From Ignavibacteriota bacterium (GTDB lineage Bacteria > Bacteroidota > Ignavibacteria > UBA10030): 64,000 bases of DNA. The stretch's first letter is position 1; the number at the start of each line of letters is the position of its first letter. The DNA lies in NCBI GenBank assembly GCA_963701295.1, contig OY969585.1, positions 2,176,001 through 2,240,000 of the forward strand, given 5' to 3'. Positions 21,996 to 56,405 of the stretch are shown here, piece after piece. Under the pieces are notes generated by a model, which was not told the origin of the DNA, did not search any database, and saw only the letters and a list, made by a program, of their open reading frames with translations. Both the position numbers and the translations under genes were made by a program.

Positions 21996-22024
21996 TTGAA
22001 TTGAGAGAGAGTTTTTTGTAATTT
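21996..22024 (+). promoter_or_regulatory. Probable native tRNA-Arg promoter
   Basis: TTGAAT-17-TAATTT; the same -10 and spacing occur upstream of tRNA-Ala (55769-55797). Confidence 0.6.
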
Positions 22025-22037
22025 TAGGTGCAACATT

Positions 22038-22102
22038 GGCCCCGTAGCTCAGTGGATAGAGCAACAGCCTTCTAAGCTGTGGGTCGCGTGTTCGAGTCAC
22101 GC
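22038..22102 (+). pseudogene. 3'-truncated tRNA-Arg(UCU) copy (left att site)
   Basis: Identical to the intact tRNA through the T-arm, then AAAACACT replaces the acceptor 3' strand CGGGGTCA. Confidence 0.9.
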
Positions 22103-22182
22103 AAAACACTACGATTTTCTGCATGTCCTTCCTTACTGGGTACTAATTTTGGGACTCCCTGCCTCAGAAAGCGAGGCTTCCG

Positions 22183-26583: not shown

Positions 26584-27003
26584 ATGCTACAATCAAATAT
26601 ACAAAGAATTATTCTCAGTCCAACAAAATTAAAAAGTGTTTGGACTGTTGAACTGCACCTTCCATTTGAAACGCGCTATGTTGGCAAGTTGGACAAAGCC
26701 GGAGAAGGAACATTTATCTGCAAGAGGAAAGAAAAACATCTTCACTGGAAGACTAATTCGCTTGGTGTCAATCTTGAACTGCTTCAACGTTTCGATTTCA
26801 GGTGGATTTGTATTGAGTATTGCGGTCGTAAGCTCTTTACTACAAAACTATACATTCTCCATCATGGTAAGGTGTTCACATTCGACAAATCCGGTTTTGA
26901 AACGCAAGCGTTTCTTCCGTTGGAGGCTTGGGGACAGGATAAAGCATTAGAATTTGAAAGGCATTTAAACAGTCAAGGTAACTTATTCAATGAGGCTGCC
27001 TAA
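26584..27003 (+). CDS. Hypothetical protein, first gene of the replication operon
   Basis: AAGGA RBS; TAATG overlap with the helicase start. Confidence 0.7.
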   Translation: MLQSNIQRIILSPTKLKSVWTVELHLPFETRYVGKLDKAGEGTFICKRKEKHLHWKTNSLGVNLELLQRFDFRWICIEYCGRKLFTTKLYILHHGKVFTFDKSGFETQAFLPLEAWGQDKALEFERHLNSQGNLFNEAA

Positions 27004-28364
27004 TGATTACTACTATTGATGCTGAAAAGTTATTGGTAGCCGCTTGCTTGCAAGGCAGGAAATCAACCCTAATGATTGCAGATACATTGGGAGTCTGTGA
27101 AGATGACTTTAGCGATAAGCATCTCAGAATGATATTCGATGTATGCCAAGCTTTAGTCCTTCAACGAAAAGATGTTGATGCCCTTGCAGTTCAATCCTAT
27201 CTCCGGAATAGTGTTGATGAATTGTATTTCTCTGGTAAAGATAAACAGCAGGAACTTGAAGCGGTCGAATCCCTCTGCAAAGATGTCGCAACCGATTATC
27301 AATTCCTTAAACAACTCGCTTCTCCCTATACAGCTTGTCAATTTGTGAAGAAGGAAGCGCAACGCCGGAAAGTGATGGAGAAGATTTTCACACTATCGGA
27401 TAAACTGCAAAACGGAAGTGATGTTGAGGCAATCCTCAATATCGGTATATCGGACTTGCTTGCGATTTCGCATTCGATACAGAACTTGAATCAAAAGAAT
27501 TATCTCTCACTTGACGATGCAATCGTTGAAGCTGAAAGAGAAATCCAAGACGAACTCTCTGGAAAAGCGAACTGGCTATCTACCGGAATACCGGACGTTG
27601 ACAAATTGATACACGGACTCCACAATGAATGTTTATACATCATAGGAGCTGAGGCAAAGGTAGGAAAATCTTTGTTGAGCAATCAAATAGCACTTCATAA
27701 TGCAATCAAAGGCATTCCGGTCGGTATTGTTTCGATGGAAATGAGCGGACGCGAGATTGTGAAACGATATGCCGGAATATCTCACTGGGCAAGTCCACAA
27801 GATAAATTGCAATCTCTGGAAACATTCAAAGCACAAGCAAAAGGAAAGCCATTGTATTTCCGGCAAGGTGGAACTTCAACAAAATCCCTGTTCTCTATCC
27901 TTCAACAATTGGTCAATGATAGAAAATGCAAGCTTCTGATTTTGGATTATCTCCAGCTTATTCAGCTATCCGAAAAGAACCGGAACGCCGTTGATGAACT
28001 CAATTCTGTCTTAGCTGAATTGAAAAGCTTTGCAATTGAAAATCAGATACCGATTATTCTTGTGAGTGCTGTATTGACAAAGCAAGTCGCTGGAAAGAAT
28101 ATCAAGAAGCCCTCACGAGCCGATATAGTGGGAACTGGCAGAGCAATCAACGACTGTGATTGTATGTTGATGCTCTGGACACCGGAAGAGGAGAACCGAA
28201 AGTATATCGAAATCTTTGTAGAGCATGGACGCAATGGAGAAAATGGAAAAGCCGGTCTCTACCTCAACGATTCACTACAACTCGTACCAACAACTTTAAG
28301 AGAAGCTGAGGTAATACCATTGAAGGAATATAAGCCGAAATCTTCTTACGGCGGAAAGTGGTAG
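27003..28364 (+). CDS. DnaB-like replicative helicase (phage-type)
   Basis: IDAEKLL N-terminus, STGIPDVD, GAEAKVGKS, SMEMS, LILDYLQL. Confidence 0.9.
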   Translation: MITTIDAEKLLVAACLQGRKSTLMIADTLGVCEDDFSDKHLRMIFDVCQALVLQRKDVDALAVQSYLRNSVDELYFSGKDKQQELEAVESLCKDVATDYQFLKQLASPYTACQFVKKEAQRRKVMEKIFTLSDKLQNGSDVEAILNIGISDLLAISHSIQNLNQKNYLSLDDAIVEAEREIQDELSGKANWLSTGIPDVDKLIHGLHNECLYIIGAEAKVGKSLLSNQIALHNAIKGIPVGIVSMEMSGREIVKRYAGISHWASPQDKLQSLETFKAQAKGKPLYFRQGGTSTKSLFSILQQLVNDRKCKLLILDYLQLIQLSEKNRNAVDELNSVLAELKSFAIENQIPIILVSAVLTKQVAGKNIKKPSRADIVGTGRAINDCDCMLMLWTPEEENRKYIEIFVEHGRNGENGKAGLYLNDSLQLVPTTLREAEVIPLKEYKPKSSYGGKW

Positions 28365-28371
28365 GCAGGCA

Positions 28372-28716
28372 ATGGCTTCTCCACAAGTTGAAAATGGCTA
28401 TACAAGAGTGTCTAATGAGCTATTAGAAGCGATTGTGAGAACGAAAATGAACGGGACGCAGTTCGCTATAGTCTTAGCTGTGATTAGAGCAACCTATGGC
28501 TTTCATAAGAAAAGTAGAGAATTAGGTCTTGCATTCTTTGCAGTAGCAACCGGACATAATAAGCGAAAAATCGGAATCGAACTTAATAAGCTAATCAATA
28601 GAAAGATTCTGATAATAGAAAAAGGGCATTGTCTTGGTCATAGTCGTGCATTGAGACTTAATAAAGATTATGAGAGCTGGATAAATTTTGATAGGTATGT
28701 ACCTAATGGGACATAG
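28372..28716 (+). CDS. Lambda O-like replication initiator, N-terminal domain only
   Basis: MASPQVENGYTRVSNELLEA..VIRATYGFHKK..LNKDYESW. Confidence 0.85.
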   Translation: MASPQVENGYTRVSNELLEAIVRTKMNGTQFAIVLAVIRATYGFHKKSRELGLAFFAVATGHNKRKIGIELNKLINRKILIIEKGHCLGHSRALRLNKDYESWINFDRYVPNGT

Positions 28717-28800
28717 GGTATGTACCAAAACGTAAAAAAGGTATGTACCAAATGGGACACTAAATAAAGAAATAAAGAAAGCTTTAAAGAGATATTTAAT
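28694..28800 (+). repeat. Iterons plus A-rich tract (putative origin)
   Basis: GGTATGTACC at 28694, 28717 and 28740 (23-bp period), then an A-rich stretch. Confidence 0.75.
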
Positions 28801-28980
28801 ATGAAGAATACATTACAAGTGATTGAAGAAGAAATTCTATTCATAGGTCAACAACTTAATGAAGAAGTCTTTGAGCAGTACACTTCAGGCGAAATCACAC
28901 TTCAGCAACTGGATGAAGCTTATCGAATCCTTTCAAAATGGTCACTTCAGAGCGAAAATGTGTTGAAGTTGCTGGAATAA
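28801..28980 (+). CDS. 59-aa acidic hypothetical protein
   Basis: Manual ORF MKNTLQVIEEE..KLLE*, below the track's length cut-off. Confidence 0.5.
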   Translation: MKNTLQVIEEEILFIGQQLNEEVFEQYTSGEITLQQLDEAYRILSKWSLQSENVLKLLE

Positions 28981-29027: not shown

Positions 29028-29552
29028 ATGGGTGGTTTTGGTAGTGGTCGTTCCGGCTGGCGTCCGGTCGTTGAAGACGGATTGAAGCTTGATTCGTACC
29101 GATTGCAGAGACAAGGCTTATTGAGTATTCACGGCTGTGAACTTTCAATTGGTTCGCTTGAATGGACATATACTTCCTCTGGAGAGCATGTTGCTTCCAT
29201 CGGCTATTCCGTAAATTATGAGAACCAGACGATGATACTCACCTACACGAAGACAATTGATGGAGAAAAATATCCGGTCAACGAAACTATCTGGCTGATA
29301 AGGCAGAAAACTAATTTCGGAGGTTCCCGCTTTCTTTTTAAATGTCCAAGCTGTTACGCAAGGGTAGCAAAACTTTATCTACCTAATGGTGCGCTCCATT
29401 TTCGCTGTCGTGGGTGTTATAATCTTACATATCAAAGCAGTAATGATAGCCATGAGTTCGACTTTCTTTTTCGACAAATATCATCTGAAACGGGTATGTC
29501 TTTTGGAAATGCTAAAAAAATAATGAAGAACATGTGGTACGTACTAAAGTAG
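29028..29552 (+). CDS. Zn-finger hypothetical protein (MGGFGSGR N-terminus)
   Basis: FGGSRFLFKCPSC..FRCRGCYNLTYQS. Confidence 0.75.
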   Translation: MGGFGSGRSGWRPVVEDGLKLDSYRLQRQGLLSIHGCELSIGSLEWTYTSSGEHVASIGYSVNYENQTMILTYTKTIDGEKYPVNETIWLIRQKTNFGGSRFLFKCPSCYARVAKLYLPNGALHFRCRGCYNLTYQSSNDSHEFDFLFRQISSETGMSFGNAKKIMKNMWYVLK

Positions 29553-29634
29553 TGTTAAATAGTATTGAATGGCTATCGAAAATGATATTATGAAACGGGT
29601 TGCCTTCTCTGTAATTGTTTTGTAAATTGAAATA

Positions 29635-29742
29635 GAACTCAAAGAAATCCGCTTTCGGAAAATCAAGAAAGAATTTACTCGAAAGAGTAGAACGCCAAGA
29701 GTTCAGAGACCGGAAGCCTCGTTTCGCTTGGCGTTTCTTATT
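29635..29742 (+). ncRNA. Candidate element-encoded sRNA complementary to the integrase RBS
   Basis: Promoter TTGCCT-17-TAAATT (29600-29628); GAAA hairpin; 9-bp stem enclosing CGGAAGCCTCG, the complement of 22172-22182. Confidence 0.5.
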
Positions 29743-29845
29743 CGTGGCAGGTGGGGACTAAATTGGTAACCTTGTGAGTGAGATAGGAGCAAACATCTTA
29801 ATCATTCACAGAAGATAATTGTAGATTTTCGATTGTTTTTCCATT

Positions 29846-29918
29846 GGCCCCGTAGCTCAGTGGATAGAGCAACAGCCTTCTAAGCTGTGGGTCGCGTGTT
29901 CGAGTCACGCCGGGGTCA
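29846..29918 (+). tRNA. tRNA-Arg (anticodon TCT), intact; CCA not encoded
   Basis: Cloverleaf: GGCCCCG/CGGGGTC acceptor, ACAGC-CTTCTAA-GCTGT anticodon arm, TTCGAGT T-loop. Confidence 0.95.
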
Positions 29919-29982
29919 CGTACTTAATTCATTTTTCGATCCTCCATATAACTTTCAATGGTTTCTAATATTTCTCAATAAA

Positions 29983-55809: not shown

Positions 55810-55882
55810 GGGGCTGTAGCTCAGCTGGGAGAGCGCTTCGTTCGCAACGAAGAGGTCGTCAGTTCGATCCTGATCAGCTCCA
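55810..55882 (+). tRNA. tRNA-Ala (anticodon CGC)
   Basis: GGGGCTG/CAGCTCC acceptor with G3-U70; CTTCG-TTCGCAA-CGAAG anticodon arm. Confidence 0.95.
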
Positions 55883-55989
55883 CAAGCTTGCAAACAGAAG
55901 TTTTTATTGATCTTGAAAATGTTTTACTGAAAACTAGTAGTTAATAATTGGATTATATACACAAAAGTCGGAGTTTTATTGGTTTCTTT

Positions 55990-56091
55990 GGGGTCAAGTC
56001 CTGTGCAACAAAGCATTGCCCAACCCCGCCAGGTCCGGAAGGAAGCAACGGTCAGCAATCAGTTTTGTGTGACGCAGGGAAACTTGACCTC
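55990..56091 (+). ncRNA. ffs: SRP RNA (4.5S)
   Basis: CAGGTCCGGAAGGAAGCAAC domain IV; closing stem GGGGTCAAGT/ACTTGACCTC; T-run. Confidence 0.93.
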
Positions 56092-56405
56092 TTTTTTTTG
56101 TTGGATTTCTAAACCTTACAGCCACCACCGGAGGCTCGTGCCTCAGAACCGCACGGAAAACGGTTAAGATCATATGGTTCATTTTCCTATAACCATCATA
56201 ATTTATGCCATCAGTCTCATGCTTTCAGATGAGCATAATTCTGAATTTGGCAGGACACTACGTTTCAGCCGATTTGGAGGAGGATTCACGCAAGTGTTTC
56301 CTCGCCTCGAATGGTATCAGTATTCAGGCGGGACTTCTCCACTTCGTTTTGAAACGCGGCAAGTTCACAACATCATTTTATTGCTGCAGTGGAAGAGGAT
56401 CTTGC

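What the first reader, a model, noticed from the sequence alone, without database searches (positions are those of the whole stretch)
29600..29751. Candidate anti-integrase sRNA encoded 7.5 kb away at the element's far end
Seen: promoter TTGCCT-17-TAAATT is followed by a ~105-nt non-coding stretch with a GAAA hairpin. A 9-bp stem (AACGCCAAG 29691-29699 / CTTGGCGTT 29727-29735) is followed by a U-rich tail. Its loop carries CGGAAGCCTCGTTTC (29711-29725), complementary to GAAAGCGAGGCTTCCG (22167-22182), which contains the GAGG RBS and abuts the integrase ATG: 11 contiguous pairs plus 4 after a 1-nt bulge. GGCAGG (29746) also matches CCTGCC (22158). Inference: integration places int downstream of the host tRNA promoter, and this RNA silences int translation in trans (or in cis across attP in the circle). 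Alternative: the two sequences are inverted DNA-binding sites flanking att.
Basis: partly seen in the sequence, partly recalled or inferred. Interest (0 to 1): 0.8.

Follow-up and report, generated by a model that had tools for sequence, protein, structure and literature searches.

The report
RNA switch joining island's two ends
A small mobile element inserted in a tRNA gene carries, at its far end, a conserved knotted RNA sequence that is complementary to the start of its own integrase gene; it likely switches integrase production on when the element is an excised circle and likely helps keep it off once the element is integrated, and I found no description of this RNA family.

Summary
The 29711-29725 loop matches the integrase ribosome-binding site (RBS), the best of 6889 start regions in the genome. 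The stretch is the right end of a 7.8-kb tyrosine-integrase island that brings the 5' part of tRNA-Arg(UCU) and its own promoter. I collected 104 distinct copies in two structural types; 88 lie just upstream of a same-strand tRNA and none tested matches Rfam. The helices covary, including a pseudoknot in which the RNA's own 5' end masks the anti-RBS loop. Two pairings link the island's ends. Loop-to-RBS holds in 15 of 23 type I elements and 1 of 17 type II. In type I that segment hits the anti-Shine-Dalgarno strand of a hairpin. In folding models of the excised circle it halves the cost of opening the RBS (23 of 23, if the module folds on itself), so it looks like an activator. Best model: on in the circle, off when integrated, with the loop acting as a lock only once unmasked. 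No transcript data were available, so direction and timing are inferred.

The parts
21996..22024 (+). Host tRNA promoter-like site TTGAAT-17-TAATTT, now reading into the truncated tRNA and integrase (inferred)
   Evidence: sequence; hexamers resemble those of the module promoters; not listed by the scanner
22034..22102 (+). attL: left copy of the 69-bp direct repeat, 5' part of tRNA-Arg(UCU) lacking the 3' acceptor strand
22137..22156 (+). Two arm-type direct repeats (12-bp period), likely integrase arm sites
   Evidence: sequence; element-specific tandem repeats at both ends in relatives, seen by eye
22158..22163 (+). B': partner of the post-U-tract segment; overlaps the anti-SD strand
22161..22177 (+). 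Hairpin GCCTC/GAGGC hiding the integrase Shine-Dalgarno
   Evidence: fold of the attL transcript; local hairpin mean -9.3 kcal/mol in 23 type I leaders
22167..22182 (+). A': integrase RBS region complementary to the RNA loop
22183..23253 (+). Tyrosine integrase, 356 aa
   Evidence: Pfam PF00589 and SAM-like domains; phrog_1
27003..28716 (+). DnaB-like helicase and short phage replication O-like gene of the island
29600..29628 (+). Island promoter TTGCCT-17-TAAATT, likely driving the RNA, the restored tRNA and, in the circle, integrase
   Evidence: 103 of 104 copies have the shape; 17 expected in shuffles
29635..29640 (+). C*: 5'-terminal strand pairing with 29699-29704 (pseudoknot helix)
   Evidence: helix 1 (3 pairs counted, 88% paired); type II counterpart helix 1
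29644..29658 (+). D*/A*: internal mimic of the integrase RBS that pairs with, and likely masks, the loop 29710-29725
29676..29689 (+). GNRA-type hairpin, seen in type I only
   Evidence: helix 4: 4 of 5 pairs with changes on both sides
29691..29743 (+). 9-bp stem P2 with 27-nt loop and U-rich tail (possible leaky terminator)
   Evidence: helix 5: 5 of 9 pairs with changes on both sides; mean 6.2 U in 8 nt after the stem
29711..29725 (+). A/D: anti-RBS loop segment
29744..29756 (+). B: post-U-tract segment (core GGCAGG 29746-51) complementary to the anti-SD strand; predicted activator in the circle transcript
29752..29771 (+). Two arm-type direct repeats (12-bp period) at the right end
   Evidence: sequence
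29773..29810 (+). Further hairpin in the spacer before the tRNA, seen in several close relatives
   Evidence: by eye; not counted
29842..29919 (+). attR repeat copy (29842-29910) and restored intact tRNA-Arg(UCU) (29846-29919), the genome's only one

Best explanation
The stretch is a conserved, likely pseudoknotted RNA at the right end of a tRNA-integrated island, and it likely works as a state switch for integrase translation: predicted on in the excised circle, where segment B would open the hairpin over the integrase Shine-Dalgarno, and predicted off when integrated, where that hairpin would stay shut and an unmasked form of the RNA's loop could lock the RBS in trans. Shown by sequence: the island carries the tRNA's 5' part, so integrase lies behind the host tRNA promoter region and the intact tRNA lies behind the island's promoter. 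Also shown: covarying internal helices, a conserved RBS hairpin and two conserved end-to-end complementarities. Inferred: (1) In the circle the promoter reads through the module and attP into int. The 5' mimic A* captures loop A as it is made, B pairs with B' about 220 nt downstream, and ribosomes load. (2) When integrated, read-through serves the tRNA, and transcripts that stop at the U-tract lack B. (3) Loss of the 5' mask, perhaps by cleavage in the A/U-rich linker before the GNRA hairpin, yields a roughly 70-nt antisense RNA. It would kiss the target's GAAA loop and cover the SD, giving a delayed shut-off that needs no Hfq.
For: Architecture. 88 of 104 copies have a same-strand tRNA within about 300 nt and 8 more a tRNA-like fragment. 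Structure: 12 of 29 pairs (type I, 15 sequences) and 27 of 30 pairs (type II, 46 sequences) change on both sides, 0 of 500 shuffles reach this, and slid controls are much lower. Loop:RBS beats shuffles at p<=0.01 in 15 of 23 type I, and cognate beats non-cognate matching in all 5000 permutations. L001 keeps 17 pairs through compensatory and G-U changes. In L368 the mask, the loop and the RBS all change together at one position. B:leader is cognate-specific in both types (best partner in 9 of 23 and 8 of 17; 0 of 5000 permutations as low). RBS opening cost in type I is 11.6 kcal/mol at attL and 5.9 at attP, lower in 23 of 23; it is 10.4 with B scrambled and 9.0 with a foreign B. Window values: 12.2, 4.9, 9.3. 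The U-tract is stronger in type I (6.2 vs 4.1 U of 8), the only type with anti-RBS. Hfq not found, Rho found. Precedent: in ICEKp1 a 15-bp 3'-end sequence relieves repression in the circle (PMC13023037).
Against: No transcript, end-mapping or circle was observed. The activation result assumes the module folds on itself; folded without that assumption (no pseudoknots allowed) the cost returns to 10.1 on average and 12.6 in the window, because A pairs with the RBS in cis. In type II the B effect is small (12.6 to 10.8; 10 of 17) and B' mostly lies upstream of the RBS hairpin. In the window a foreign B worked almost as well (5.7 vs 4.9). Anti-RBS pairing is no better than shuffles in 8 of 23 type I elements. 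The strand-neutral G-U versus A-C count is only suggestive: 9:4 for A (p 0.13), 16:5 for B type I (p 0.28 against a composition null), 10:1 for B type II (p 0.02). The strand test for the 5' mask went the wrong way in type I (10 better, 37 worse). Elements are related, so p-values overstate. The processing step is a guess.
Confidence: 0.55

Rival explanations
1. Pure trans silencer: the terminated RNA, or the whole 210-nt leader released from the pre-tRNA by RNase P, binds the integrase leader with both A and B and represses it; nothing activates.
For: A:A' is long and the best genome-wide match. A and B can bind the target together in antiparallel order. Integrase lies behind a tRNA promoter-like site and needs damping. 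The unmasked full attP fold is as closed as attL.
Against: The 5' mask pairs about as strongly as the target (mean -18.6 vs -19.0 kcal/mol). B alone opens the RBS hairpin. B:B' persists in elements that have no anti-RBS (8 type I, nearly all type II), where silencing by A is not available.
Confidence: 0.2
2. Cis-only timer: all pairings act within the circle's own transcript. It is first translatable (A masked, B:B' formed) and then refolds to A:A', giving a pulse of integrase. In the integrated state the RNA is merely a tRNA leader.
For: Segment order A, B, B', A' is nested in the circle. RNA and leader appear to travel as one attP cassette: L326/L327 share near-identical RNA and leader with L274/L275 but their integrases fall in another clade. 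Masked trans binding is unfavourable in 23 of 23 (crude).
Against: Does not explain why the strong U-tract, which would make a discrete RNA ending before B, goes with the type that has the anti-RBS.
Confidence: 0.13
3. The pseudoknot is mainly a ligand- or protein-sensing attenuator, or a ribozyme, that sets read-through into the tRNA or integrase; the anti-RBS match is a secondary acquisition.
For: Five interlocked covarying helices with the 5'-terminal bases paired. The pseudoknot strands lie inside the loop of a terminator-like stem. The fold is kept in type II without anti-RBS.
Against: Few unpaired positions are conserved at 80% or more in either alignment, unlike aptamers and ribozymes. 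No Rfam match. The HDV-like features I recall (G-U at the cleavage site, catalytic C strand) were not seen by eye.
Confidence: 0.08
4. The complements are inverted DNA sites (protein-binding, or folded single-stranded attP) flanking att, with no RNA role.
For: B and B' abut the arm repeats, and some B:B' pairs use the arms' own near-palindromes. Weinberg 2017 notes that ssDNA and RNA motifs are hard to tell apart (PMC5737381, passage).
Against: The complements track the SD and anti-SD strands exactly. A sits in a covarying loop behind a conserved promoter with GNRA loops and a U-tract. The transcribed strands pair better than their reverse complements (16:4 for A; 16:6 and 11:6 for B). Separate direct-repeat arm sites already exist.
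Confidence: 0.04

Closest known systems
ICEKp1 / ICEclc / ICEEc1 state-dependent integrase promoter switch (PMC13023037; abstract, introduction, part of methods, passages and Discussion read)
   Same: Integrase is read from the host tRNA promoter when integrated and from an end promoter in the circle. Stem-loops in the int leader damp it, and a short far-end sequence relieves this in the circle; the authors propose base pairing from an in silico fold.
   Different: There the control is transcriptional, the islands insert at tRNA 3' ends, and 'antisense', 'translation' and 'small RNA' occur 0 times in the main text. Here the target is the SD hairpin, the pairing covaries across 40 elements, there is a pseudoknotted module with a masked anti-RBS loop, and the end promoter must probably also drive the tRNA.
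Phage P4 CI RNA with seqA/seqC (passage in PMC4825925) and phage P1/P7 C4 RNA (passages in PMC5320573)
   Same: An antisense RNA cut from a leader that also holds a copy of its target upstream and acts on a target downstream; C4 loops occlude an RBS after processing.
   Different: No sequence or structure match to Rfam. The target is the integrase RBS across att, 7.5 kb away when integrated. Processing is untested here, and there is no second activating segment in those systems as described in the passages.
Islands with a displaced 5' tRNA fragment (Islander, PMC4383910; passages read)
   Same: tRNA 5' fragment upstream, restored tRNA at the far end, tyrosine integrase; 159 of 3919 islands in that table.
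   Different: The passages read give no regulation ('promoter' occurs 0 times in the main text). Here the integrase family uses this layout at many tRNA species and carries a conserved RNA.
ncRv12659 of prophage PhiRv2 (PMC3861185; passages read)
   Same: An RNA transcribed outward from a prophage-end promoter that was proposed to drive genes in the circle.
   Different: No pairing to an integrase RBS is reported in the passages; different layout.

Membership tests
Any Rfam 15 family (including C4, ctRNA, HDV-like ribozymes, riboswitches) | Covariance-model score above the gathering threshold | tested here: not met
   Window: only tRNA and SRP hits; 29550-29850 best 12.2 bits vs 45 for ctRNA_pGA1, E 7.5, opposite strand; 9 related loci gave only tRNAs
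Trans-acting antisense RNA of a mobile element (P4 CI / P1 C4 kind) | Extended complementarity to the target RBS that is conserved and covaries | tested here: met
   15 of 23 type I elements; not type II
Trans-acting antisense RNA of a mobile element (P4 CI / P1 C4 kind) | Upstream copy of the target inside the precursor | tested here: met
   5' segment pairs with the loop at p<=0.01 in 46 of 58 type I copies; helices 2-3
Trans-acting antisense RNA of a mobile element (P4 CI / P1 C4 kind) | Discrete processed RNA that represses in trans | not testable with these tools
   no RNA holder listed
State-dependent integrase switch (ICEKp1 kind) | int co-oriented behind the host tRNA promoter; second promoter at the far end facing attP | tested here: met
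   (sequence level only)
State-dependent integrase switch (ICEKp1 kind) | Far-end sequence relieves leader repression in the circle | tested here: inconclusive
   predicted in 23 of 23 type I if the module self-folds, not otherwise; no experiment
State-dependent integrase switch (ICEKp1 kind) | Conjugative element inserted at the tRNA 3' end with the host terminator displaced | tested here: not met
   7.8-kb island with a 5' tRNA fragment; no conjugation family among the ORFs scanned
5'-fragment tRNA islands (Islander) | 5' tRNA fragment upstream, intact tRNA downstream, tyrosine integrase between | tested here: met
Canonical intrinsic terminator | Short-loop G+C stem followed by a U-run | tested here: inconclusive
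   stem and U-rich tail conserved, but 27-nt loop; not called by the scanner
Riboswitch or self-cleaving ribozyme | Invariant unpaired core nucleotides; ligand binding or cleavage | tested here: inconclusive
   little conservation outside helices; activity not testable
Phage satellite (PICI-like) | integrase, replication genes, regulators and packaging interference genes | tested here: inconclusive
   integrase, DnaB-like and O-like genes found; the other 8 of 11 ORFs have no PHROG hit

The most novel reading that the evidence does not exclude
A new family of pseudoknotted RNAs lets tRNA-targeting islands sense their own recombination state at the level of translation. One transcript is a tRNA leader when integrated and the integrase 5' UTR when circular. 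It carries an activator that can reach the RBS hairpin only across attP, and a self-masked antisense loop that matures into a delayed, Hfq-independent repressor giving immunity. Decayed islands leave the module behind as the permanent promoter of host tRNA genes.
Probability: 0.35. Interest if true: 0.88.

Novelty: new variant of a known kind. Interest (0 to 1): 0.76.

Why it matters
How integrated elements make integrase after entry yet keep it low behind a strong tRNA promoter is a live question. The 2026 ICEKp1 paper ends by asking for proof of an end-to-end RNA pairing. Here such a pairing is written in covariation across 40 elements with different tRNA targets, at the level of translation, together with an RNA fold absent from Rfam. 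It gives exact compensatory mutants to test in a laboratory reporter. It also suggests that many tRNA genes in this lineage (5 of 46 in this genome) are transcribed from island-derived leaders. A switch that turns on only when two DNA ends are joined could be useful in genome engineering.

Tried and rejected
Expression: no RNA holder listed. The one DNA run covered 14 of 30 bins and showed no joint, which says nothing about excision. Viral contigs and metagenome scans gave mostly distant integrases. Generic promoter and terminator scans did not call the module. Rfam: nothing. The idea that the P2 5' strand is the anti-SD in type II was tested and not supported (1 of 17 at p<=0.01; permutation p 0.07); for type I 0 of 23. 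An xrRNA-like block to RNase J was considered, but RNase J was not found in this genome with TIGR00649. An HDV-like ribozyme reading was rejected by eye from recalled features. One origin of type I is not shown: the quick tree needs 3 changes (41 rows; the careful tree did not finish). The type I model found no genome outside the order among 151 phylum-wide samples. The type II model hit 5 genomes of other orders among 151 class-wide samples, and 3 of 4 such loci checked had a tRNA-Ser downstream. Earlier scan findings: none relevant. The primary P4 paper was not held. Supplements of PMC11109978 and PMC5737381, which list motif catalogues, could not be read and could bear on novelty.

Full report
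Observation. The loop 29711-29725 can pair with 22167-22182 either as 11+4 pairs around a bulge or as 14 contiguous pairs with one G-U. Against 6889 candidate ATG regions of the whole genome the integrase start ranks first (-26.3 kcal/mol; next -25.2). The second match, segment B, ranks 20th of 6889. The RNA's own fold energy is not unusual (z -1.3), and the generic scanner calls neither promoter nor terminator there.

Context. A 69-bp direct repeat (22034-22102 and 29842-29910) bounds a 7.8-kb island with a tyrosine integrase, a DnaB-like helicase and a short O-like replication gene. The left copy is a tRNA-Arg(UCU) lacking its 3' end. The intact gene, the only tRNA-Arg(UCU) among 46 tRNAs, is at the right end. 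The island thus carries the tRNA's 5' part, a layout seen in 159 of 3919 Islander islands (PMC4383910, passages). Integrase therefore follows the host promoter region, and the tRNA follows island DNA. The closest integrases (78-83% identity) are in records titled Ignavibacteriota or Ignavibacteriae. A protein search of 277 genomes of the order matched 81. Among 138 integrase hits examined, redundant ones included, 34 elements had both att copies in hand, at many different tRNA species.

The RNA family. Right ends fell into two types. I built models from 15 type I and 11 type II sequences. Genome searches matched 21 of 151 and 12 of 80 genomes for type I and 39 of 151 for type II. Re-searching 58 and 84 chosen loci gave 59 and 46 matches, 104 distinct. 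Of these, 88 have a same-strand tRNA within about 300 nt and 8 more a tRNA-like fragment. A TTG-16/18-TAnnnT shape precedes 57 of 58 type I copies (10.8 expected) and 46 of 46 type II (6.4 expected; biased, because that model includes the -10 box). By eye, elements without the module (L328, L134) or with only its 5' stub (L345) have one promoter-like site straight before the arm repeats. I infer from this that the module's promoter is the replacement tRNA promoter and that some read-through is required.

Structure. Both types have a terminator-like stem whose large loop pairs with 5' segments of the RNA. On the type I alignment 12 of 29 pairs change on both sides with 88.6% of cells paired (the mask helix is misaligned by one column in some rows). 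On 46 type II sequences 27 of 30 pairs do so (alignment fitted only to two of the five helices). No shuffle of 500 reached these values and slid partners fell to 32-52% paired, though relatedness inflates the shuffle test. The 5'-to-loop duplex beats shuffles at p<=0.01 in 46 of 58 and 21 of 46 copies; its strand test went the wrong way in type I. Type I adds a GNRA-type hairpin and a stronger U-tract (6.2 vs 4.1 U in 8 nt; the column choice is approximate). Few unpaired positions are conserved. Nothing in Rfam matches.

End-to-end pairings. 47 of the 104 modules could be matched to an integrase. I dropped 7 (6 tandem or ambiguous junctions, 1 wrong start), leaving 23 type I and 17 type II, 9 of them matched across contigs by genome and tRNA. 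Loop-to-RBS pairing beats shuffles at p<=0.01 in 15 of 23 type I and 1 of 17 type II; cognate matching beats all 5000 permutations in type I only. L001 keeps 17 pairs with 3 G-U. In L368 (a cross-contig match) mask, loop and RBS change together at the position that is A in the other loops listed. Segment B pairs with the leader element-specifically in both types (own leader best in 9 of 23 and 8 of 17; 0 of 5000 permutations as low). Transcribed strands pair better than their reverse complements (16:4 for the loop; 16:6 and 11:6 for B). A strand-neutral count of G-U against A-C is weaker: 9:4, 16:5 and 10:1, significant against a composition null only in the last.

Direction. The integrase leader has its own hairpin over the Shine-Dalgarno, and in type I B' overlaps its anti-SD strand. 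I computed the energy needed to open positions -14 to +5. At attL it averages 11.6 kcal/mol. In a modelled attP transcript with the module assumed self-folded it is 5.9, lower in 23 of 23. It is 10.4 with B shuffled (4 shuffles each) and 9.0 with one foreign B each (own B better by over 1 kcal/mol in 15 of 23). Without the self-folding assumption it is 10.1, because the loop then pairs with the RBS. In type II the effect is small (12.6 to 10.8). For binding in trans, a 5'-trimmed RNA gains more than 5 kcal/mol in 12 of 23, while an RNA whose mask must first melt gains in 0 of 23 (a crude upper bound that overcounts the mask). Hfq and RNase J were not found and Rho was found in this genome.

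Mechanism, committed. In the circle one transcript runs from 29635 through attP into int. The mask holds the loop, B opens the SD hairpin, and Int is made for integration. After integration B and B' are on different transcripts, the hairpin stays shut behind the host promoter, read-through from the island promoter feeds the tRNA, and terminated RNAs without B can lock the RBS once unmasked. Sequence anatomy and covariation are shown; transcription, termination, processing and both regulatory effects are inferred. I put RNA-level control of int at about 0.9 and this particular model at 0.55.

What is known. ICEKp1, ICEclc and ICEEc1 switch integrase promoters by state, and a 15-bp far-end sequence relieves leader repression, with base pairing proposed but not shown (PMC13023037: abstract, introduction, part of methods, passages, Discussion). 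P4 CI and P1 C4 are processed antisense RNAs flanked by their targets (passages of PMC4825925 and PMC5320573). ncRv12659 is an RNA from a prophage-end promoter (PMC3861185, passages). Passages of three motif surveys (PMC2864571, PMC5737381, PMC11109978) showed no such motif, but two supplements were unreadable. Ten full-text searches (listings and abstract starts only, except the papers named) found no antisense or long-range RNA control of an integrase RBS in a 5'-fragment island. The library lacks most subscription papers. The labels arm site, GNRA, RNase P release and RNase E-type site are from recalled knowledge.

Verdict. Real, conserved and more intricate than first read: a new RNA family and a translational variant of state-dependent integrase control, untested at the bench. 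Interest 0.76.

Noticed in passing
G000:C1:2498039-2498167(+), 2503193-2503317(-), 3436650-3436788(-), 2756864-2757008(-): Four more modules in this genome lie upstream of tRNA-Arg(UCG), Arg(ACG), Ser(GCU) and Arg(CCU), some beside broken integrases; with the window's, 5 of 46 tRNA genes may run on island-derived promoters.
   Followed up: partly
57 of 104 modules: No integrase partner found in the fetched DNA (up to 19 kb, often less); many may be relics kept as tRNA promoters. In L002 the promoter before attL looks like a module with the RNA deleted.
   Followed up: partly
L326, L327 versus L274, L275: Near-identical RNA and integrase leader, but integrases in different clades of the quick tree: the attP cassette may be swapped between integrases.
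   Followed up: partly
integrase family: Integrases 75-85% identical sit at different tRNA genes (Arg UCU/ACG/CCG, Pro), always behind a 5' tRNA fragment, suggesting easy retargeting.
   Followed up: no
window 22103-22135 and relatives: A C/U-rich, G-poor stretch between the tRNA fragment and the arm repeats recurs in most leaders; it resembles a Rho loading site (recalled feature).
   Followed up: no
L003, L272, L334, L275, L294, L418: Tandem junctions where a module and tRNA fragment lie directly upstream of another element's integrase, i.e. natural attP-like arrangements in chromosomes.
   Followed up: no
window 29028-29552 (+): 174-aa ORF with two CxxC pairs and no Pfam or PHROG hit; no excisionase was identified in the island.
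   Followed up: no
window 28372-28980 (+): The O-like gene is only 114 aa against profiles of 230-350 positions and is followed by a 59-aa ORF; possibly decayed.
   Followed up: no
window 29578-29596: A 19-nt stretch just upstream of the promoter has 8 one-mismatch copies elsewhere in the genome; coding repeat or regulator site, unknown.
   Followed up: no
L001:9770-9850, L003:9725-9800, G000:C1 near 3172370 and 2513400: A recurring element with GAGAATCCCG-type repeats lies just upstream of several tRNA-Arg fragments.
   Followed up: no
L141, L143: Related integrases whose att repeat is a tRNA on the opposite strand; L141 has a type I-like stem by eye but the model did not match it.
   Followed up: partly
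window 55810-55883 and 55992-56092: tRNA-Ala(CGC) followed by the SRP RNA; ordinary.
   Followed up: no
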